From: an uncultured Acidobacteriota bacterium
GTDB lineage: Bacteria; Acidobacteriota; G020349885; CAZDZC01
Reading direction: 5' to 3'
Assembly: GCA_964509835.1 (NCBI GenBank)
Contig: CAZDZC010000008.1
Span: 2,136-66,135, forward strand
Length of the DNA: 64,000 nucleotides
Shown piece after piece: positions 21,724 through 64,000 of the stretch. The notes under the pieces were generated by a model. It saw only the letters and a list, made by a program, of their open reading frames with translations. It ran no database searches and was not told where the DNA came from. Position 1 is the stretch's first letter; the number at the start of each line of letters is the position of its first letter. The position numbers and the translations under genes were made by a program.

Positions 21724-21850
21724 ATTTCATATGGCGGTTTACCCCGTGTTGGAATGCCTTGTTGAACCGCCCCCCTTGCCATAAATCAATGTTCAGTATA
21801 GAATACAGCTTCATGATTTGACGGAAGATTTTCATTCAGAGGAGGAAGAC

Positions 21851-22528
21851 ATGAAGATAAACAGCTATATACAGACTATAAGTCAGATCAAATCTGACAT
21901 ACTTAAAAGCAGGTCCCTTGTTTCAAAGATAGCGAACAGAGAATTGCTGGCATTATATTTTAGAGTAGGTTCAATAATATCCGATAAAGTGACCAGAGAG
22001 AAATGGGGCAGCAGAACTATCGAGAATTTATCCGCAGACCTTCAAAAGGAGCTCAAAGGCCTGAGAGGTTTTTCATTTACGAATTTAAAAAGGATGAGGC
22101 AGTTTTATGAAGAATGGAAACCTTATTTGCGGAATCGATCGGATATTCCGGGTTTAATAAGCCCGTTGTCAACGGTCCAATTGAATCTGCCTGCGAATGT
22201 AATTAGCCCGTTGCTAACGGGCCAATTAATGGAACTCTTTGTTAATCTTACATTTACTGCGCATTGTGAGATAATGGCCAAGGCTAAAACTATTGATGCC
22301 AAAGTGTTTTATATTGCTAAAGCTGCGTCTGAGTTCTGGAATATTGAAACATTAAAAAGAAACTTAAAAAGCAGACTTTTTGAAAAAACAGGCAAACTGC
22401 CTAATAATTTCGAGGAGACCCTTCCCGAAAAAAGCAGGGGGAATGTGCTTGCGGCTTTCAGAGATCAGTATCTGCTGGATTTTGTAAGAATATCGGATGA
22501 AAAAACGCTAAAGAAACTTATGGATTGA
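21851..22528 (+). CDS. DUF1016/YhcG-family protein, N-terminal part only (C-terminal PD-(D/E)XK nuclease core missing)
   Basis: The ATG at 21851 has a GGAGG RBS. LLALYFRVGSIISDKV..WGSRTIENLSADLQKELKGLRGFSFTNLKRMRQFYEEW matches the YhcG N-domain. The ORF stops right after FRDQYLLDFV, where the nuclease domain normally begins. Confidence 0.6.
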   Translation: MKINSYIQTISQIKSDILKSRSLVSKIANRELLALYFRVGSIISDKVTREKWGSRTIENLSADLQKELKGLRGFSFTNLKRMRQFYEEWKPYLRNRSDIPGLISPLSTVQLNLPANVISPLLTGQLMELFVNLTFTAHCEIMAKAKTIDAKVFYIAKAASEFWNIETLKRNLKSRLFEKTGKLPNNFEETLPEKSRGNVLAAFRDQYLLDFVRISDEKTLKKLMD

Positions 22529-22696
22529 CGGTTTAAAAGACAATGAAAAAACTGCAACATGCTGAGCGGGAAAGCTTGGATCCCGCAAAATACTTTCGGC
22601 CTTGCCCTTATCCCCTGCTCCGGTCTATAATGTTCCTTCTCATATTCACGGAGGAAAATTTGGATCACCGCCCCGCAGAATGATTTTTCTCCGAAG

Positions 22697-22750
22697 CAGA
22701 AAAAAATCCTGCCGGAGTTCAGCGGTAGGGGGAAATGTGTGGCAGGATTT
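22697..22750 (-). terminator. Possible minus-strand terminator-like hairpin in a 700-bp non-coding gap
   Basis: The 10-bp arms AAATCCTGCC (22704..22713) and GGCAGGATTT (22741..22750) are followed, on the minus strand, by a T-run. The 27-nt loop is unusually large. Confidence 0.3.
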
Positions 22751-22883
22751 CAGTCATGATGGGTTCTTCTAAAGGTTAAGAACATACTGTACTGCAATCC
22801 ATTTTTCTTCAACATCTTGAGGGGATTCTTTAATTTCAAATCGCTAATTTGACAATCCCGAAATATTGTAATAACATTTAATC

Positions 22884-22985
22884 GTCAGAGTAATAGCGCT
22901 AATGCGGCGATTCAAAAATTGCAGGCATTTTTTGACCAAGCCAAATGGGTCTTGGAAGCATTGCCGTATTAGCTGTTACTCTGAC
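22884..22985. other. Long imperfect hairpin (14 bp + 2-nt bulge + 9 bp stem enclosing about 54 nt): candidate structured RNA or inverted-repeat relic
   Basis: GTCAGAGTAATAGC[GC]TAATGCGGC (22884..22908) pairs with GCCGTATTAGCTGTTACTCTGAC (22963..22985), including two G-U pairs. An inner helix CCAAG/CTTGG is present. TGCAGGCA (22920..22927) can alternatively pair with TGCCTGCA (22995..23002). Confidence 0.35.
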
Positions 22986-23232
22986 AAGAAACAGTGCCTG
23001 CATTCTTCCTTGACCCTTTCTTTATGGTCTTCGGAAGAATTAATTGAAACCCCTTTCTTTCGGAGGCACAATGAAAAACGAATTAATCTTTCCGCAATAA
23101 ACAGAATTGGCAGAATGCAAGCATAACAAACTTGTAGCAAATTAGGAGCGTTATGGAGCTGAGAGTTGAAAGGTAAAAGATTTTCTGTTACCTAAAGGTC
23201 ATTGTTGATTTTTTTCAAAGAGGAGCAATGGA

Positions 23233-25677
23233 ATGAAAAAGCTAGTGCTGTTTTGGGGTGTTTTTCTGATCGTTTCAATATTCCCGATGTGCAATTTTGC
23301 TGATATCAACGAGCCAGAAGATATAAATTGCTATTTGTTAAATGGAGTTAGCAACAACATACCGTCCAATTGGCTATATTCATGCCAAGAAAAATGGAAT
23401 CAATCATTGGAACCAATTGTAATCAGAGAATCACATGAGATTACTTCTGACACAAATGGCAAGTTTATTCTTGAAATATGGGAAACCCTTGAGAATTTTG
23501 GCTTTAAAGAAATAACTGAAATCTTTGTCTATAACGCAATCACCGACGAAGACATAGTTTCTTCAAATAGCCATGCTTTGTGGGTTTTGCAGGCATCTTC
23601 ACCGCAATCCGTAGCGAGACTCAGTTGTTACTTCGAGAACAATGGGAATGTCTATCGTTTTAGATATCTTGTTACAGACGCTGGCAAAGGATTGCAGCAA
23701 TTTATGAATCTTACATCCAAAGTAATGTTGACAAACAATATCCCGTCACATTTTCTAGACATACCTAAAGAAATACTTGAAATTATCGCAAATGGAGGGT
23801 TAGAACCAACGGGTGAGACATGTTGTTCTTATTATAGCTCTGGAAATTGCTATCCTTGTTGCTCTGCTGGGAATTGCACTTGGTGGTGCAGATACAAAAG
23901 AACAGATATTGCTAACTGCGGATGGGGTAATGCAAAAGAATGGATTGCAAGTGCACAAAGCGCAGGTTTTCCAACCGGTTCAACACCTTTGGTTGGATCT
24001 ATAATGGTTATGGACGCCTATGAATGCTATGCTGCTTCCTATGGTCATGTGGCGTATGTTGAAAGCGTGAACGGCTCCAATATAACAGTATCTGAAATGG
24101 GTTGCGAGTCTTGGTATTGCGCGAGAACCAATGTTGTTTCTTCTTCTTGTGGAAGTCTTCAATACATATATACCAAAACAGGCGGAGGCTGCAATATTTT
24201 AAACTGGGAATTCAGTGGAAGCGACTACACTGAAACAGACGGCTGGACGACGAACTCGCATATGCAGATAATGAATGTCTCGGATGGTGTTATTGACCTG
24301 GATCCCAAGAACTGCCCTGATTTATGCGATCCGATGTTTCTAAGCCCTTCAGGTCTTTGTGTCTCAGCGGCAACTTATCCAAGGCTTGAAATCAGAATGA
24401 AAAGCAGCACCTACACAAGCGCAGGGGATATTTTCTTTCAAAGGTCTGTTGATTCCGATTTCAGCACGGCCAGAAGAATAATTATGGATTTTGATATTTC
24501 AGGGGCTTACACATACTATAACATCAATATGGCGGCCAATTCCAATTGGAACGGCACAATATCCCGTCTCCGTATTGATCCGCCCAGCGGCGACACAGAC
24601 GGTTCATGGGATCACCATATGATTGATTATATCAGGTTCAGTAACTGCTGTATGAAAGACAACTGGCAGTGGAACACTTATGGTGATAAAGAAGGATGGA
24701 CAGCGGTAAACTGCACCATACCAGGCACACAACCTGTAGATGGTCATTACCTGCTTTATCCCAGCACCAACGACCCGCAGTTTATAAGTCCGAGGCTTTG
24801 CGAATCAACTAATGATTTTGATGGCATTAGACTTGGGATAGCAGCGCAAACCTCGTCCAACAAGGTTCAAATATTCTTCTCGACTGATACAGAGACTTTC
24901 TTTTCAGAGGATAAATCGAAAACTATCTATGTAACAAATGATGGAGGCTGGTACTCCTACGAAGTAGAACTTGGCGACAATCCAAAATGGACGGGAATTA
25001 TAAGAAAGCTCCGCATTGATCCCCCGAATGGTCCTAACATCATGGGTTTTGATTATGTGGAACTGATTGATGGTACTTATCTGCCCCCTGCGGATACCGA
25101 TCCGCCTGTCTGGGACACAACAACCGGAATACAGGCTGTAACCGATCCCATGAATTGCGATGGCATTCTCAGCTTATCGTGGAATACTGCCAGCGACTTA
25201 ACAACACCGGTAACATACAACATATATCGTGATATTTTGACCGGGTTCACGCCTGATGCCATTACCTATGTAAATAGCACAACTGGGACATCTTATGAAG
25301 ATTTATACTTAACGCCTGGACAGACTTACTACTATGTGGTTCGAGCCCAGGACGCTGCTGATCCGGCAAATGAAGATGACAATATCGTTGAGCTGTCAGG
25401 TACTGCAACAGATTCTGAAAATGCACTGGCGCCTGTCACAGGGCTGATGATGGACACAGCGGGAAACATGGAATGGGTAGATTCCGGTGCTCTTGAGGTG
25501 AAATATAATATCTACAGAAGCACAAATGCTGATTACACAACAGGCGTAACAATGCTTGGCGAAACGGTAGATGGCAATACAACAACTTTTGTTTCAGCTG
25601 AGAACCCTGCAAATCCCGGAGATTGCTGGTTCTATAAAGTAAAAGCGGTTGATGAGTGCGGGCAGGAGATGGACTGA
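23233..25677 (+). CDS. Large exported CHAP-domain (cysteine/histidine amidohydrolase-peptidase) protein with repeated beta domains and FN3-like C-terminal modules
   Basis: 814 aa with a signal peptide. The CHAP core is NCTWWCRYKR..WGNAKEWIASAQSAGFPTGSTPLVGSIMVMD..YGHVAYVESVNGSNITVSEMG. Two copies of a module end in (S/R)(R/K)LRIDPP. FN3-like segments follow (LSWNTASD..YNIYRD, YYYVVRAQD, YNIYRS..FYKVKAVD). Confidence 0.75.
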   Translation: MKKLVLFWGVFLIVSIFPMCNFADINEPEDINCYLLNGVSNNIPSNWLYSCQEKWNQSLEPIVIRESHEITSDTNGKFILEIWETLENFGFKEITEIFVYNAITDEDIVSSNSHALWVLQASSPQSVARLSCYFENNGNVYRFRYLVTDAGKGLQQFMNLTSKVMLTNNIPSHFLDIPKEILEIIANGGLEPTGETCCSYYSSGNCYPCCSAGNCTWWCRYKRTDIANCGWGNAKEWIASAQSAGFPTGSTPLVGSIMVMDAYECYAASYGHVAYVESVNGSNITVSEMGCESWYCARTNVVSSSCGSLQYIYTKTGGGCNILNWEFSGSDYTETDGWTTNSHMQIMNVSDGVIDLDPKNCPDLCDPMFLSPSGLCVSAATYPRLEIRMKSSTYTSAGDIFFQRSVDSDFSTARRIIMDFDISGAYTYYNINMAANSNWNGTISRLRIDPPSGDTDGSWDHHMIDYIRFSNCCMKDNWQWNTYGDKEGWTAVNCTIPGTQPVDGHYLLYPSTNDPQFISPRLCESTNDFDGIRLGIAAQTSSNKVQIFFSTDTETFFSEDKSKTIYVTNDGGWYSYEVELGDNPKWTGIIRKLRIDPPNGPNIMGFDYVELIDGTYLPPADTDPPVWDTTTGIQAVTDPMNCDGILSLSWNTASDLTTPVTYNIYRDILTGFTPDAITYVNSTTGTSYEDLYLTPGQTYYYVVRAQDAADPANEDDNIVELSGTATDSENALAPVTGLMMDTAGNMEWVDSGALEVKYNIYRSTNADYTTGVTMLGETVDGNTTTFVSAENPANPGDCWFYKVKAVDECGQEMD

Positions 25678-25755
25678 TAAGGTTCCACTGGTATTTAAAG
25701 GAGTGGCGAATGGCCAAATATATGTGATTTAGAGGATAGCCACAAAATGTAGCTG

Positions 25756-25783
25756 GTGGACGGTGGGAATACCCACCGTCCAC
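25756..25783 (+). terminator. Perfect 12-bp stem / 4-nt loop hairpin after the CHAP gene (no T-tract)
   Basis: GTGGACGGTGGG-AATA-CCCACCGTCCAC. It lies 79 nt after the stop at 25677 and 20 nt before the next start. Confidence 0.4.
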
Positions 25784-25802
25784 ATTCAGAGAGAGGTTTT
25801 AA

Positions 25803-26531
25803 ATGAATTGTTTTATTAAGATAACTGTCCTAATTTCTATACTGTCGGTTATTCTCAGTTGTTCTGCCGTAAATAAGATCGGACAAAAAATGGTCAACGC
25901 TTCTGACCGTGAAAAGGGTTCAGAGAATAATGACGAAGCAACAAACGAAGAAAATAACAAACCAGGCACCAAAGCTAAAAAAGCAGAAAAGCAAAAAACA
26001 GAAGATTATGGTTTTATTTCCGTACAAAATCTTACAGCCCGAGAAATTGATATGCTTTGGCAGGTAGCCATAGATAAGTGCTTTGAGATGGCTTATATGG
26101 TGACATTCAGCGATAAGAATACTGGAAACATTGCTGCTGAAACTAAAGGTGCAGATGGCGCCAGTTCTTCAATCAGGGTCAATTTTTCAAGTCAAGGCAT
26201 AAAGATAGATGTAAAAGCCAACGACCTTGTTTATGCTTTTGCAGGTGGTTTAGATAGAAAAAGAATGCACGCAGCGCTTGAAGCGAAATTGAAGGAGATG
26301 AACAGAATTACTTCAACACAAGAAACACAGTCTGTAGAGGCAGTCGGCAGTCTATCAATTTTTGAGGTTCAAAAAATTCTTGCTTCCGCAGGATATAATC
26401 CTGGACCCATTGACGGAAAGATGGGACCCAAGACAAGAGCCGCTATTGCCCAGTTCCAAAAGGATAAAGGATTACAAGGAACAGGCAACCTGGATACTGA
26501 AACACAGGCTAAACTCAAAAACTTACAGTAA
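25803..26531 (+). CDS. Lipoprotein with C-terminal peptidoglycan-binding domain (PG_binding_1)
   Basis: 242 aa. Lipobox-like LSVILSC, a Lys/Glu-rich linker, and the C-terminal VQKILASAGYNPGPIDGKMGPKTRAAIAQFQKDKGLQGTGNLD. Confidence 0.75.
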   Translation: MNCFIKITVLISILSVILSCSAVNKIGQKMVNASDREKGSENNDEATNEENNKPGTKAKKAEKQKTEDYGFISVQNLTAREIDMLWQVAIDKCFEMAYMVTFSDKNTGNIAAETKGADGASSSIRVNFSSQGIKIDVKANDLVYAFAGGLDRKRMHAALEAKLKEMNRITSTQETQSVEAVGSLSIFEVQKILASAGYNPGPIDGKMGPKTRAAIAQFQKDKGLQGTGNLDTETQAKLKNLQ

Positions 26532-26710
26532 TTTATCTACACAACCCTTTACATAGAATATGTTTTAAGTAAACTACCGGGAAAAAGGGATTGAAAAGCC
26601 TTTCTGCTTTAGGTCTTACCTCCGAAAGTCGAGCTTGTTTATGGTCAGTTGAAGGCATTACATCACAAAATTCGGCCCAAAATCACACAAAACATCATAT
26701 ATGATTTTTG

Positions 26711-27004
26711 GAAAATCATATAATCGCGCCAGAAAATCATATCCGGCAATCAGGAAATCATATTCCGGAGTTTAGAAATCATATTCCGGCATCCAGAAAT
26801 CATATCCGGGAGTTTAGAAATCATATCCGGCGAACAGGAAGTCATATCCAGGCACGAAGAAATCATATTCCGGAGTTTAGAAGTCATATCCCGGCGCATA
26901 GAAATCATACTTCGGAGTTTAGAAATCATAATCGGCGACTAAGAAATCATATCCGGCAGCATAGATGTCATATATTGGCACGCGGAAATCATACTTTTCG
27001 GAAC
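26711..27004 (+). repeat. Tandem array of 14 phased 21-bp repeats (consensus AGAAATCATATCCGG + 6-7 variable nt)
   Basis: Unit starts are 26711, 26731, 26752, 26774, 26795, 26816, 26836, 26858, 26879, 26900, 26921, 26942, 26963 and 26984, a spacing of 20-22 nt with a mode of 21. Degenerate copies occur upstream from about 26660. Inverted-orientation ATATGAT-type copies occur downstream at 27071, 27092 and 27113 on the same 21-bp register. Confidence 0.9.
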
Positions 27005-27173
27005 TGAGGTTATAAACTGGAGAAAAAAGATGATGTTTCGGCGGATAAACATCACATATTTTGTGAAATATATGATGTTCGCGCAAAAATATATGACGAA
27101 TTGCCTGAATTATGTGATGTGTGGCGGATGGCTGGCGGCCAGGACAACCGTAGATATTGATATCTGGGGGATT

Positions 27174-28586
27174 TTATTCCATAAATTCATCAAGTGTCTG
27201 TTTGACTACTGAGAGCTGTTTCTTTTCCGCTTTTTTGTATTCAACGAGGGGTTGGATGTCCTGAACGATGCTGTCAAATAGTTCCTGCTGTCCGACATGG
27301 TTGAGGAATTTCTGCTGGTCTTCGGTAAGGTTTTGCCGGTTCATGATATCTTCCGGTGGGAGTTTCAGTTCCTCCGCGATTGCTGCTTGAAGGGTTTTAA
27401 GCAGTTCTGTTATTTCCCGCGAAAGTGGGGATTGTTTATTTGTAAGCCCGATGCATAGCTGAACTGTTTTCTGAAGGAATCCTGGTTTGTTTTTTATGCT
27501 TGCGCCTGTTATGTCGCGATAACCGTAATCGGTGGCGAGATCGAGAAGGGGAGGGGCTGTTATAAGCTTTCCGTCCACCCTGTCCGCGTTCAGACGGTTG
27601 AAGGCGAAACCGCTGAAGATGAGCAGGTCGAATACGGCTTTCAGTTCGTCTTCCGTCATTGCGCTGAATGTCTTCATATCGGGTTTGAGAAGAACGCCTC
27701 CTCCGAAGAGCGACGGCCCTCCTTCCGATGATGTCTTTGTCCCGTCGGGCAGCTTGAGATAAACGGCGTGTCCGTAGGCTGATGCGATTGAAGCTGTTGG
27801 GTTGAGGATAGTCAGGTCAACGGGATAGGGGTGAAGTCTCAGGTCCTCCATCATGATGGAAGGGCATTTGTCTGCTTCGGCTTTTTTCAGGGAGGATATG
27901 ATTGAATAGACAACGCCGAGATTCTTCTGCGGGGAGCTGTCCCAGTCGTGGGTAATGAGAAGATCCGCTTTTTTCAGGTCTTTAAGTGCGCAGAATACGG
28001 GCGCGTCGGGGCTGTCCGCGGGGACATTCATTTTCAGCTCCAGTTCGATGGTTGTTTCCCCTTTTTTGAATGAATACTGGGACCGTATCCATTCGGCGTT
28101 CGGGATATGCTTTTCAAACTCCGCGACTACCTTGAAGAACCGTTCCGTTCCGTATGCAGCGACCCAGAATCCGGATTTGAGTTCGCTGTAGATTTTCTGC
28201 TCTGCGGTGTAGTTGAGAAAGCGGTCAATCTCAACGACGGTGGCTTTGTCTATGTCCGTGAATGTGTAGGAAAAATGCCTAATGGTTCCCGGTTCCTCAA
28301 TGAAAACCAGCGGCGCAATATGCGAGCCTGACCCGATGTAGAGAATATCAACGGATTGCTGTGCCACGCCGGAAGACCGCCAGAGTTCCTTCATTGTCTC
28401 ATGGCCTCTGAGGTCGTGAAGCCTTCTGTAGAGCTGTTCAATTTTCTGAATGTCCGGTTCCGGCGACTTGAGTTCCTTTTCAACTTCTTTCGTAAACTTC
28501 TTTTCAAGTTTTGCAAAACCTTCCGAACAGAAGGCGGGGGATAGCAGAAGGAAAAATAAAAAAACGGTTAAGATTTTGTTCTTCAT
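27174..28586 (-). CDS. Exported hypothetical protein, co-transcribed downstream of the TonB-dependent receptor
   Basis: 470 aa with signal peptide MKNKILTVFLFFLLLSPAFC. There is a 4-nt overlap with the receptor gene. No family was recognised. Confidence 0.6.
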   Translation of the reverse strand: MKNKILTVFLFFLLLSPAFCSEGFAKLEKKFTKEVEKELKSPEPDIQKIEQLYRRLHDLRGHETMKELWRSSGVAQQSVDILYIGSGSHIAPLVFIEEPGTIRHFSYTFTDIDKATVVEIDRFLNYTAEQKIYSELKSGFWVAAYGTERFFKVVAEFEKHIPNAEWIRSQYSFKKGETTIELELKMNVPADSPDAPVFCALKDLKKADLLITHDWDSSPQKNLGVVYSIISSLKKAEADKCPSIMMEDLRLHPYPVDLTILNPTASIASAYGHAVYLKLPDGTKTSSEGGPSLFGGGVLLKPDMKTFSAMTEDELKAVFDLLIFSGFAFNRLNADRVDGKLITAPPLLDLATDYGYRDITGASIKNKPGFLQKTVQLCIGLTNKQSPLSREITELLKTLQAAIAEELKLPPEDIMNRQNLTEDQQKFLNHVGQQELFDSIVQDIQPLVEYKKAEKKQLSVVKQTLDEFME

Positions 28587-61547: not shown

Positions 61548-62504
61548 GTGACAACCGGATATACATACAGCGGAAACTCGGTAATAAAAGAGGAAACTGC
61601 AACTTACACCCGCTATTACACGCACGGACAGGGAATAGACAATGTGATGGCACAGGACGACGGGACTTCAACAAACTATTACTACAAGAACCATCTCGGC
61701 TCTACATCCGTGATATCAAACGGAACATACACAGATGATTACGACTACACCTCCTGGGGCGAACCCGTAGCAAACGCAACGAACTTCCATAATCCGTACA
61801 TCTACACAGGCAGGGAAGCAGCGGAAAACGGGCTGTATTATTACCGGGCTAGGTTCTATGATCCGGGCATTGGAAGGTTCAACTCTGCTGATCCGATGGG
61901 ATTGGGTGCAGGGATTAATCATTTTGCTTATACTTTCAATAATCCTATCTTGTTATCAGATCCATCAGGGTCAGTTCCAAAAGGCAAGGCACTATTTGGA
62001 GTATGTTGTAGACCAGTAAATATTCCAGGAAATCCAGGATTTCAGCACTGCTATATAGCCATGAAAGCTGGAAAACAAGAAAAGACATGGAGCTTGAAAG
62101 GACCTGCATATATGATTGGGACAGGAACATCCATTAAGAATTGGAAAGAAGATGTAGTAAGTGATTCAGATTGCAAATGGGGTACATTTTGTAAGGAGGC
62201 TACAGAGAATTGCATTGATGCTGCACATGATAGCTGGCCAAGTAGAACAGCTTATTTTCCTTTTCCTCCATCATTTTCTGAGTTTTACACATGCAATAGT
62301 TATGCATCACACATTGCTTTTAAATGCGGGATTCCATTTAATCCATGGATTTCTAATAAAATAATTGCTCCTGGTTGGGGTAAAACATATCAGGCACCAG
62401 ATCCATATCCAACCTTTGGTGGTGATGTTGGTCCGGGTGCTGGTCCCTTATCAGGCTATAGGGGAACTCTTCCGTCCTTATCTACATCTCCATTATCGAT
62501 GTAA
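61548..62504 (+). CDS. Orphan (5'-truncated) Rhs/YD-repeat C-terminal module: RHS core end + variable C-terminal toxin domain
   Basis: YD-like sequence in this frame already begins at about 61437 (VEWDEEDRLSAIKENGTEIASYKYY), and the frame opens at 61389. The first start codon is the GTG at 61548. The core end is YYYRARFYDPGIGRFNSADPMGL..YTFNNPILLSDPSG, followed by a 177-aa unique C-terminal domain. Confidence 0.75.
   Translation: MTTGYTYSGNSVIKEETATYTRYYTHGQGIDNVMAQDDGTSTNYYYKNHLGSTSVISNGTYTDDYDYTSWGEPVANATNFHNPYIYTGREAAENGLYYYRARFYDPGIGRFNSADPMGLGAGINHFAYTFNNPILLSDPSGSVPKGKALFGVCCRPVNIPGNPGFQHCYIAMKAGKQEKTWSLKGPAYMIGTGTSIKNWKEDVVSDSDCKWGTFCKEATENCIDAAHDSWPSRTAYFPFPPSFSEFYTCNSYASHIAFKCGIPFNPWISNKIIAPGWGKTYQAPDPYPTFGGDVGPGAGPLSGYRGTLPSLSTSPLSM
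61604..61761 (+). repeat. 158-bp direct repeat, copy 1 (Rhs core segment)
   Basis: 155 of 158 nt are identical to 63709..63866, at an offset of 2105 bp. Confidence 0.95.
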
Positions 62505-63592: not shown

Positions 63593-63946
63593 ATGAGTAA
63601 ACCCGCTGAAATAATGAAGACTACAAACGCAACACCCGTGAACTACAGCTATTATCAGAACGCCAGGAGCAGCAACTCCCAGCTCCTGCAATCAGACGGC
63701 GTCTGGAATTACACCCGCTATTACACGCATGGACAGGGAATAGACAATGTGATGGCAAAGGACGACGGGACTTCAACAAACTATTACTACAAGAACCATC
63801 TCGGCTCTACATCCGTGATATCAAACGGAACATACACAGATGATTACGATTACACCTCCTGGGGCGGGATTGTGACAGGCAGCTCAATGCCCGGGGAGGG
63901 GAATTCGACGGAGTTTATCCTGAGCCTGTCGAAGGGCTCAGCCTGA
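63593..63946 (+). pseudogene. Second Rhs core remnant, truncated before the DPxGL motif
   Basis: WNYTRYYTHGQGIDNVMAKDDGTSTNYYYKNHLGSTSVISNGTYTDDYDYTSWG is near-identical to 61548 ORF residues 18-71. It then diverges into unrelated sequence and stops. Confidence 0.7.
63709..63866 (+). repeat. 158-bp direct repeat, copy 2 (Rhs core segment)
   Basis: 155 of 158 nt are identical to 61604..61761. Confidence 0.95.
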
Positions 63947-64000
63947 CGGGGAATCATTGGTCAAACATCACATAATTTGCGCTGTTTATCATATAAACAT

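What the first reader, a model, noticed from the sequence alone, without database searches (positions are those of the whole stretch)
26660..27125. Array of 14 helically phased 21-bp repeats between two convergent genes, flanked by same-register degenerate and inverted copies
- The unit AGAAATCATATCCGG plus 6-7 variable nt recurs 14 times, with start-to-start spacing of 20-22 bp (mode 21).
- That spacing is two helical turns, so every conserved 15-mer lies on the same DNA face.
- Every second variable segment tends to be GAGTTT, giving a partial 42/43-bp super-repeat.
- The array begins at a palindrome, ATCATATATGAT (around 26695..26706).
- It continues downstream with weaker copies in inverted orientation (TATGATG at 27071, TATGACG at 27092, TGTGATG at 27113), still on the 21-bp register.
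- It lies at the 3' ends of both neighbouring genes, so it is not a simple promoter operator.
- The geometry is that of plasmid or phage iterons, or a ParR/ParG-type centromere (direct-repeat arrays bound cooperatively). No rep or par gene is adjacent.
- The repeat also creates a 99-codon His-rich ORF (26708..27007, NHI heptads), which may be an artefact of 21 being 7 codons.
Basis: seen in the sequence. Interest (0 to 1): 0.65.

Follow-up and report, generated by a model that had tools for sequence, protein, structure and literature searches.

The report
Dispersed repeat element with 21-bp array
The 14-unit, exactly 21-bp-spaced repeat array is real, but it is the body of a roughly 465-bp non-coding, multi-copy element with inverted ends (a MITE-like selfish repeat carrying a minisatellite), not a plasmid origin, centromere or His-rich gene.

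Summary
Window 26710-27003 is 14 head-to-tail units of exactly 21 bp, with a conserved core GAAATCATAT (TCATA invariant) and a variable spacer.

The array is not a private feature of this intergenic gap. The segment 26660-27124 is a discrete element:
- Contigs from the same sediment metagenomes match its edges, then run into unrelated sequence at 26659/26675 and at 27124.
- The same alternative right flank recurs in two other studies.
- A related end lies at 63945-64000.
- The element is bounded by a 13/14 inverted repeat (ACATCACAAAATTC / GAATTATGTGATGT).
- Its leader and tail carry seven more copies of the core motif, partly inverted and in the same 21-bp register.

No rep, par or transposase gene lies within 10 kb. 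The contig is chromosomal (sdhA, ppk, ppx). The 99-codon His-rich ORF has no homologue and no coding signature.

Best reading: a MITE-like dispersed repeat with an internal minisatellite. This is the same kind as BrickBuilt of Porphyromonas gingivalis, but a different family.

Transposition itself is unproven. I found no target duplication, no empty site and no autonomous partner.

Interest is modest.

The parts
26660..26709 (+). Leader of the element. It holds the left inverted repeat ACATCACAAAATTC (26660-26673), core-like motifs at 26661, 26681 and 26693 (+) and 26699 (-), and the palindrome ATCATATATGAT (26694-26705).
   Evidence: Inverted-repeat pair I3, 13/14 complementary. Motif hits. 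Other contigs match from 26659 or 26675 inward and are unrelated outward.
26710..27003 (+). Minisatellite body: 14 units of exactly 21 bp, consensus TAGAAATCATATCCGGGAGCT. The core GAAATCATAT is conserved and the spacer is variable. Higher-order periods of 63 and 105 bp are present.
   Evidence: Independent unitigs tile 26670-27079 with 0-2 differences each.
27004..27124 (+). Tail. It holds two degenerate units (27004-27045), an in-register plus-strand site at 27050, a hairpin at 27048-27079, inverted core copies at 27070, 27091 and 27112 spaced 21 bp apart, and the right inverted repeat GAATTATGTGATGT (27107-27120). The sequence shared with other copies ends at 27124.
   Evidence: (I3, I4, I8). 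The loose end TAGATGAGATGCTGTCCGG... follows 27124 in six runs.
63945..64000 (+). Start of a related multi-copy element, cut off by the window end. ACATCACATAATT at 63965 is identical to the right-end repeat of the first element, and TCATATA follows 21 bp later.
   Evidence: Summed contig depth is about 42-50, against 5-8 for flanking single-copy sequence. Several different upstream flanks appear at 63945 and 63952.
25803..26531 (+). Left neighbour (context only): a 242-aa PG_binding_1 protein, whose stop is 128 bp before the element.
27174..28586 (-). Right neighbour (context only): a 470-aa protein of unknown function, the last gene of a Pmp3-TonB-dependent-receptor operon. Its stop is 49 bp from the element.

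Best explanation
Window 26660-27124 is one copy of a lineage-specific, non-coding, dispersed repeat of the MITE type.

**Build.** It has a short leader and tail ending in inverted repeats (ACATCACAWAATT), around a minisatellite of 21-bp units.

**What is shown:**
- the array;
- the uneven core/spacer conservation;
- the inverted ends;
- further copies with other flanks, which coincide with those ends;
- no coding potential;
- no replicon genes nearby.

**What is inferred:**
- The element spread by transposition, using a transposase encoded elsewhere.
- The roughly 9-10-bp motif A(A/C)ATCA(T/C)A(T/C), which forms the ends, the subterminal sites and the array core, is that protein's binding site.
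- The body grew by slippage or unequal exchange of whole units and of 63-105-bp blocks. That process alone keeps the period at exactly 21 bp.

**Local effect.** At this locus the element most likely has no dedicated function. At most its hairpins and foldback ends act on the 3' ends of the two convergent transcripts.
For: - **Edges.** Contigs of runs X1-X4 match the element's edges, then continue into unrelated sequence at 26659, 26675 and 27124. Their depth is like the genome's (about 5), and depth inside the element is 2-6 times the flanks.
- **Other studies.** The same alternative right flank, TAGATGAGATGCTGTCCGG, follows 27124 in an aquaculture run and a soil run from other studies.
- **Other copies share the build.** One contig joins a variant of the leader palindrome directly to units matching from 26792 onward. 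Another holds diverged units in a different order (tables 5, 5c and 7).
- **Ends.** The inverted repeat, 13/14 complementary, sits at the independently mapped boundaries (I3).
- **Motif in leader and tail.** Seven motif copies lie in the 171 bp of leader plus tail, against 0.10 expected from the rest of the window.
- **Second end in the window.** The end at 63965 shares 13/13 nt plus a site at +21, and is itself high-copy.
- **Relative.** The nearest relative of the neighbouring operon (51% identity) has no array at the corresponding position.
- **Not coding.** The ORF has no homologue.
- **Precedent.** BrickBuilt in the Bacteroidota species P. gingivalis is a MITE built of a 23-nt minisatellite with leader, tail and small inverted ends. 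It is always intergenic, 49-591 nt from coding sequences (PMC4596501).
Against: - No target-site duplication is visible at this copy. The flanks are ...GGCATT and GTGGCGG....
- No allele lacking the element (a joint from 26659 to 27125) appears in four runs.
- No transposase, and no longer element with the same ends, was found.
- The shared sequence extends 4 nt beyond the inverted repeat on the right, and 14-20 nt beyond it at 63945-63964. The repeat is therefore subterminal rather than strictly terminal.
- The second locus is kept at about 97% identity across three studies. That fits an old, immobile copy as well as a mobile one.
- Other copies were seen only as short unitigs, and never as full sequences.
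Confidence: 0.55

Rival explanations
1. The element family is a host-kept, phased protein-binding platform. A dimeric or filament-forming DNA-binding protein would coat the 14 same-face cores and the inverted outlier sites, for example as a nucleoid, insulator or termination element between convergent operons. In this reading its spread is not due to an active transposase.
For: - The core is far better conserved than the spacer.
- The exact two-turn register continues outside the array to 26693 and 27050, and on the other strand at 27070, 27091 and 27112.
- A second locus is conserved across three studies.
- No target duplication or empty site was seen.
Against: - No candidate binding protein is nearby.
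- Whole-unit slippage alone keeps a 21-bp period.
- Block duplications of 63/105 bp mean that units are not independent samples, so the conservation test overstates the constraint.
- The motif is not enriched elsewhere in the window: roughly 33 of the 49 hits lie outside the element, against about 27 expected.
- The relative lacks the array.
Confidence: 0.2
2. It is a purely local minisatellite (VNTR) formed in place by slippage, with no element identity. In this reading the inverted ends are chance.
For: - Higher-order periods and variant unit orders in the runs show ordinary minisatellite dynamics.
- Many unrelated 21-bp arrays exist in other genomes.
Against: - Leader, array and tail recur with different flanks.
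- The boundaries coincide with the inverted repeat.
- Depth inside is several times that of the flanks.
Confidence: 0.1
3. It is an invertible DNA segment (inverton). The 14-nt inverted repeats would be recombination sites for a site-specific invertase that flips the 433-bp interior, as in Bacteroides families of invertible promoters that share one repeat consensus at many loci.
For: - Inverted repeats flank a 433-bp segment.
- Several loci share the same repeat.
Against: - The segment lies at the 3' ends of both neighbours, so a flipped promoter would have no gene to drive.
- No strand-changing joints were seen, although contigs drop rare variants.
- No invertase is nearby.
- A 14-unit internal array is not a feature of known invertons (own knowledge).
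Confidence: 0.04
4. It is an iteron array or a ParR/ParG-type centromere of a plasmid, phage or integrated replicon.
For: Direct repeats of 21 bp on one DNA face, with flanking inverted copies.
Against: - The context is chromosomal.
- No rep or par genes lie within 10 kb on either side.
- DnaA-box-like sites do not cluster beside the array.
- There is no similarity to 72,556 plasmids, and only a trivial 37-bp hit among 50,697 phages.
- It is a multi-copy, dispersed sequence.
Confidence: 0.03
5. The array encodes a real His-rich heptad-repeat protein (the ORF at 26708-27007).
For: One frame is open for 99 codons.
Against: - No protein with E <= 0.01 was found among 5.8 billion proteins. Not even a self-match appeared, so no such gene was called.
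- There is no Pfam match.
- Mismatches by codon position are 23/34/24, so there is no third-position excess.
- The start codon is TTG.
- A reverse-strand frame across part of the array (59 aa, 26750-26929) is also open.
Confidence: 0.01

Closest known systems
BrickBuilt MITE/minisatellite of Porphyromonas gingivalis and P. gulae (Klein et al. 2015, PMC4596501)
   Same: - Non-coding and always intergenic.
- Multi-copy.
- The body is a tandem array of units of about two helical turns, without spacers.
- Unit positions are conserved and non-conserved in the same mixed way.
- Distinct leader and tail segments end in small inverted repeats.
- Target duplications are absent or inconsistent.
- It lies tens to hundreds of bp from the flanking genes.
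   Different: - The unit is 23 nt, not 21.
- The inverted ends are GAGACCTTTGCA, IS5-type and matching ISPg1/ISPg9. Here they are ACATCACAWAATT, with no known partner.
- There is no sequence similarity.
- BrickBuilt's leader and tail are 285-318 nt at their longest and are non-repetitive. Here they are 50 and 121 nt and are themselves made of the array's core motif.
- Promoter activity was shown for BrickBuilt and was not tested here.
MITEPgRS/MITE464 of P. gingivalis (as described in PMC4596501)
   Same: A MITE with internal tandem direct repeats and repetitive flanking segments.
   Different: It has 41-nt units, IS5-type ends and no sequence similarity.
Transposon ends with multiple phased transposase-binding sites (Tn7 TnsB sites, Mu att sites, IS21 multiple terminal repeats; own knowledge)
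   Same: A short motif is repeated in direct orientation near each end and inverted between the ends. Site spacing is about 20-22 bp.
   Different: - Those ends carry 2-4 sites per end, not 14 or more.
- They belong to elements that encode their own transposase.
- Their terminal dinucleotides (TG...CA) are not seen here.
Plasmid iterons and ParR/ParG centromeres
   Same: Same-face direct repeats of about 20 bp.
   Different: This element has no adjacent initiator or partition gene, is chromosomal, and is dispersed in several copies with inverted ends.

Membership tests
MITE (non-autonomous DNA transposon) | Small (under about 1 kb) and non-coding | tested here: met
   The element is 465 bp. 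Its only long ORF has no homologue or Pfam match and no codon signature.
MITE (non-autonomous DNA transposon) | Terminal inverted repeats | tested here: met
   A 14-nt pair, 13/14 complementary, lies at 26660-26673 and 27107-27120. The same 13-mer is present at the second element's end, at 63965. The shared sequence runs 4-20 nt beyond the repeat, so the repeat is subterminal.
MITE (non-autonomous DNA transposon) | Several copies at different loci in one genome | tested here: met
   Alternative flanks appear at 26659, 26675 and 27124, at genome-like depth. A second end lies on the same contig.
MITE (non-autonomous DNA transposon) | Target-site duplication | tested here: not met
   The flanks ...AAGGCATT and GTGGCGGA... 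(or CGGATGG...) share no direct repeat at any plausible boundary. Only this one copy could be tested at both ends.
MITE (non-autonomous DNA transposon) | Autonomous partner element with the same ends and a transposase | not testable with these tools
   There is none in the 64-kb window. A scan of viral contigs with an end-derived pattern gave only chance hits in unrelated sequence.
MITE (non-autonomous DNA transposon) | Insertion polymorphism (empty sites) | tested here: inconclusive
   No joint from 26659 to 27125 appears in four runs. Assembled contigs drop rare variants. The only related genome is too distant (51% identity), and it lacks the array.
BrickBuilt family proper | 23-nt unit and IS5-type ends GAGACCTT(T/C)GCA | tested here: not met
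   Here the unit is 21 nt and the ends are ACATCACAWAATT, against Table 2 of PMC4596501.
Plasmid or phage iterons | Adjacent initiator (rep) gene, and a replicon context with DnaA boxes or an AT-rich unwinding element | tested here: not met
   No Rep domain lies within 10 kb on either side. The genes are chromosomal. DnaA-box-like sites do not cluster beside the array. There is no plasmid match.
ParR/ParG-type centromere | Lies immediately upstream of, or next to, its parMR or parFG operon | tested here: not met
   The neighbours are a PG-binding protein and the last gene of a TonB-receptor operon, both ending at the array.
VNTR / minisatellite | Tandem units whose number or order differs between copies or strains | tested here: inconclusive
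   Contigs with 'go back 84' and 'go back 120' joints and variant units exist. They may come from other copies of the element rather than from alleles of this locus.

The most novel reading that the evidence does not exclude
The element is not inert. Its roughly 23 copies of one 9-10-bp motif comprise 14 on one DNA face at exactly two helical turns, plus in-register direct and inverted outliers that also form its ends. Together they would make a self-amplified binding platform for the protein that moves or recognises the element. The platform would assemble a long nucleoprotein filament or loop between convergent operons, acting either as a transposase sink that regulates the family or as a domesticated insulator or terminator. 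That would make it a bacterial counterpart of the subterminal-repeat regions of eukaryotic CACTA/hAT transposons.
Probability: 0.15. Interest if true: 0.6.

Novelty: new member of a known kind. Interest (0 to 1): 0.33.

Why it matters
- It removes a false lead: this is not a cryptic replicon origin or centromere, and not a His-rich gene.
- It adds a minisatellite-bearing, MITE-like family to the few described in bacteria. It comes from an uncultured sediment lineage only distantly related to any sequenced genome.
- Such elements break short-read assemblies. Every independent contig stops inside it, so contig joins across it, including this window's convergent-gene arrangement, need long-read confirmation.
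- The array core and the inverted ends share one motif. That gives a concrete handle (ACATCACAWAATT / AAATCATAT) for finding the cognate protein once a complete genome is available.

Tried and rejected
1. **Whole-genome search and download.** Copy number, full copies and a partner transposase could not be obtained.
2. **Genome-contig scan for three AAATCATA cores at 21-bp spacing.** It gave more than 116 loci. Most are (CATAAAT)n heptamer microsatellites.
3. **Stricter AAATCATAT x3 pattern.** It gave 0 viral and 55 metagenome loci.
   - These arrays have unrelated spacers and none matches this family.
   - Some lie inside long ORFs.
   - Almost none have inverted core copies in their flanks: 4 of 48 flank hits.
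   - I therefore rejected the idea of a cross-phylum 'AAATCATAT array' family as a by-product of the query.
4. **End-derived pattern in viral contigs.** The seven hits are chance matches in unrelated sequence.
5. **BLAST against plasmids and phages.** Nothing meaningful.
6. **Rfam.** No hit in 20-34 kb.
7. **Exact-protein look-ups to reach the contig beyond the window end.** Not on record.
8. **Synteny check across the element.** The DUF4143 ATPases of the window and of relative L145 are only about 25% identical, so they do not support or refute the assembly join.
9. **RNA runs.** None are available.
10. **Promoter and terminator scans.** Not above the shuffled expectation.
11. **RNA folding.** The z-score is -5.2 on the minus strand. 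This is driven by the inverted ends and the tail hairpin, as expected for any foldback element, and is not evidence of a structured RNA.
12. **Earlier-findings index.** No look-alike stretch in other windows.

Full report
**1. The observation**

Reading 26400-27400 and printing it in a 21-bp register shows 14 consecutive units from 26710 to 27003.

- A search for AAATCATAT with at most one mismatch places the core at 26713, 26734 and so on to 26986, every step exactly 21 bp. The thirteenth unit, at 26965, has two mismatches (ATGTCATAT).
- Tandem Repeats Finder reports periods of 21, 63 and 105 bp. The 105-bp period has 82% matches. The array therefore grew partly by duplication of blocks of 3-5 units.
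The GAGTT spacers sit at units 3, 5, 8 and 10.
- Conservation within the unit is very uneven. TCATA is invariant. The best 10-nt window carries 9 of the 81 mismatches, against about 31 expected under even spread, and none of 20,000 simulations reached 9. Units copied as blocks are not independent, so this overstates the constraint. The contrast is still large.

**2. The array is the body of a discrete, multi-copy element**

I laid the assembled contigs of four sediment-metagenome runs of one study (X1-X4) on the region.

- Contigs match the edges of the stretch and then continue into unrelated sequence. Outward of 26659 one reads ...GTTAACGCTAA. Outward of 26675 another reads ...TTCTTAAACCA. 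Beyond 27124 four runs read TAGATGAGATGCTGTCCGG....
- These contigs have the same depth as the single-copy flanks (about 5). Summed depth inside the element is 2-6 times higher.
- One contig joins a variant of the leader palindrome directly to units matching from 26792 onward. Another holds diverged units in a different order. Other copies therefore share the leader-array build.
- The same alternative right flank follows 27124 in an aquaculture metagenome and a soil metagenome from two other studies, at about 97% identity.
- The mapped limits coincide with a 14-nt inverted repeat: ACATCACAAAATTC at 26660-26673 and GAATTATGTGATGT at 27107-27120, 13/14 complementary.
- The motif [AC]ATCA[CT]A[CTA] occurs four times in the 50-bp leader and three times in the 121-bp tail, against 0.10 expected from the rest of the window.
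- The plus-strand copies at 26693 and 27050 are in the array's register. The minus-strand copies at 27070, 27091 and 27112 are 21 bp apart.

*A second end in the window*

- At the window's end, ACATCACATAATT (63965) is identical to the right-end repeat, and TCATATA follows 21 bp later.
- That stretch is high-copy in the same runs: depth 42-50 against 5-8, with several different upstream flanks at 63945 and 63952.
- It is a related but more abundant sub-family. Its body lies beyond the window.

**3. What it is not**

*Not a gene*

- The 99-codon ORF found no protein at E <= 0.01 among 5.8 billion proteins, and it was not itself on record as a called gene.
- It has no Pfam match.
- Mismatches per codon position are 23/34/24.
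- A reverse-strand frame across part of the array (59 aa, 26750-26929) is also open.

*Not an origin or a centromere*

- The contig carries sdhA, ppk and ppx.
- The genes within 10 kb are a tail-fibre-like protein, a DUF4143 ATPase, a DUF1016 fragment, a CHAP protein, a PG-binding protein, the Pmp3-TonB-receptor-470-aa operon and a PDZ protein. None has a Rep, Par or transposase domain.
- DnaA-box-like sites do not cluster beside the array.
- Plasmid and phage collections give no meaningful match.

*Other checks*

- Rfam finds nothing.
- The closest relative of the neighbouring operon (51% identity, GCA_054039415.1) keeps Pmp3-receptor-472-aa. It has an unrelated 576-bp spacer and no tandem repeat there.

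**4. What it most likely is**

The build is a short leader and tail with inverted ends around a spacer-less array of units of about two helical turns. The element is strictly intergenic and present in several copies. This matches the published BrickBuilt element of P. gingivalis, which has:

- 23-nt units;
- 19 copies;
- a position always 49-591 nt from coding sequences;
- both conserved and variable unit positions;
- inconsistent target duplications;
- IS5-type ends (PMC4596501).

This element shares the kind but not the family. The unit length, the ends and the sequence all differ.

One difference seems notable. Here the array core, the subterminal sites and the inverted ends are variants of a single motif. 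This suggests that the body arose by amplification of the element's own protein-binding site.

Whole-unit slippage keeps a 21-bp period without any selection. The exact phasing is therefore not in itself evidence of function.

**5. What remains unproven**

- I found no target-site duplication at this copy.
- I found no empty-site allele.
- I found no autonomous partner.
- Other copies were seen only as short unitigs.
Copy number, full copies and a cognate transposase could not be determined.
- The shared sequence runs 4-20 nt beyond the inverted repeat.
- Conservation of a second locus across three studies fits an old, immobile copy as well as a mobile one.
- No independent contig spans the element. 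The convergent-gene arrangement depends on the source assembly's path through a multi-copy repeat, and the synteny check was uninformative.

**6. A lead that failed**

- Scans for three cores at 21-bp spacing returned many loci, largely from Bacteroidota. Most are (CATAAAT)n microsatellites.
- The true 21-bp arrays among them have unrelated spacers, are partly coding, and lack inverted flank copies.
- They are not one family with this element, and none matches it.

**7. Verdict**

- The iteron/centromere reading is not supported.
- The coding reading is rejected.
- The best explanation is a MITE-like dispersed repeat with an internal minisatellite, at confidence 0.55.
- The main rival is a host-kept, phased binding platform, at 0.2.
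- It is a new member of a known kind, and interest is modest.

Noticed in passing
window 63909-63941: A very high-copy short repeat. Summed contig depth is about 60, against 5-8 for its surroundings, and many different flanks are seen. It contains the hairpin CTGAGCC-TGTCGAAG-GGCTCAG and overlaps the 3' end of an Rhs-fragment ORF. It resembles the dispersed hairpin repeats that produce spurious '...LSLSKG...' peptides in many environmental genomes (own recollection, not tested).
   Followed up: partly
window 61548-62504 and 63593-63946: These are orphan Rhs pieces. One is an RHS repeat-associated core domain ORF. The other is a 117-aa YD-repeat-like fragment. They sit just upstream of the second repeat element, which suggests an Rhs toxin-tip cassette region.
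   Followed up: no
window 21800-27125 versus L145 9420-9996: The stretch between the DUF4143 ATPase gene and the 470-aa gene holds a DUF1016 fragment, a CHAP protein, a PG-binding protein and the element. Its G+C falls to 0.39. It has no counterpart in the nearest relative, where DUF4143 ATPase genes follow the operon after 576 bp. This is probably a variable island with the element at its edge.
   Followed up: partly
window 26660-27124 (assembly): Every independent unitig stops inside the element. At 26976 and 27039, all contigs of runs X1, X2 and X4 that cover the site carry a different base from the window. The window's exact array sequence and the join of its flanks should be treated as provisional.
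   Followed up: partly
loci L061, L091, L111 (genome contigs): An unrelated 21-bp array family, with unit GACAAATCATACTTGCCAACA, occurs at three loci with up to 24 units. L061 is Emticicia sp. In L091 the array is flanked on both sides by the direct repeat ACAGGATTTCAGGATGAACAGGAT.
   Followed up: no
loci L001-L116 (genome contigs): (CATAAAT)n heptamer microsatellites are common. They account for most of the more than 116 hits of the first pattern scan, which came largely from Bacteroidota genomes.
   Followed up: no
loci L032, L166, L176, L189: A 21-bp array with unit AAGAAATCRTATTGYAAGCCA recurs in a Saprospiraceae genome and in three metagenome contigs, with 4-14 units (the arrays in L166, L176 and L189 lie at or near a contig end). 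It may be another dispersed array family.
   Followed up: no
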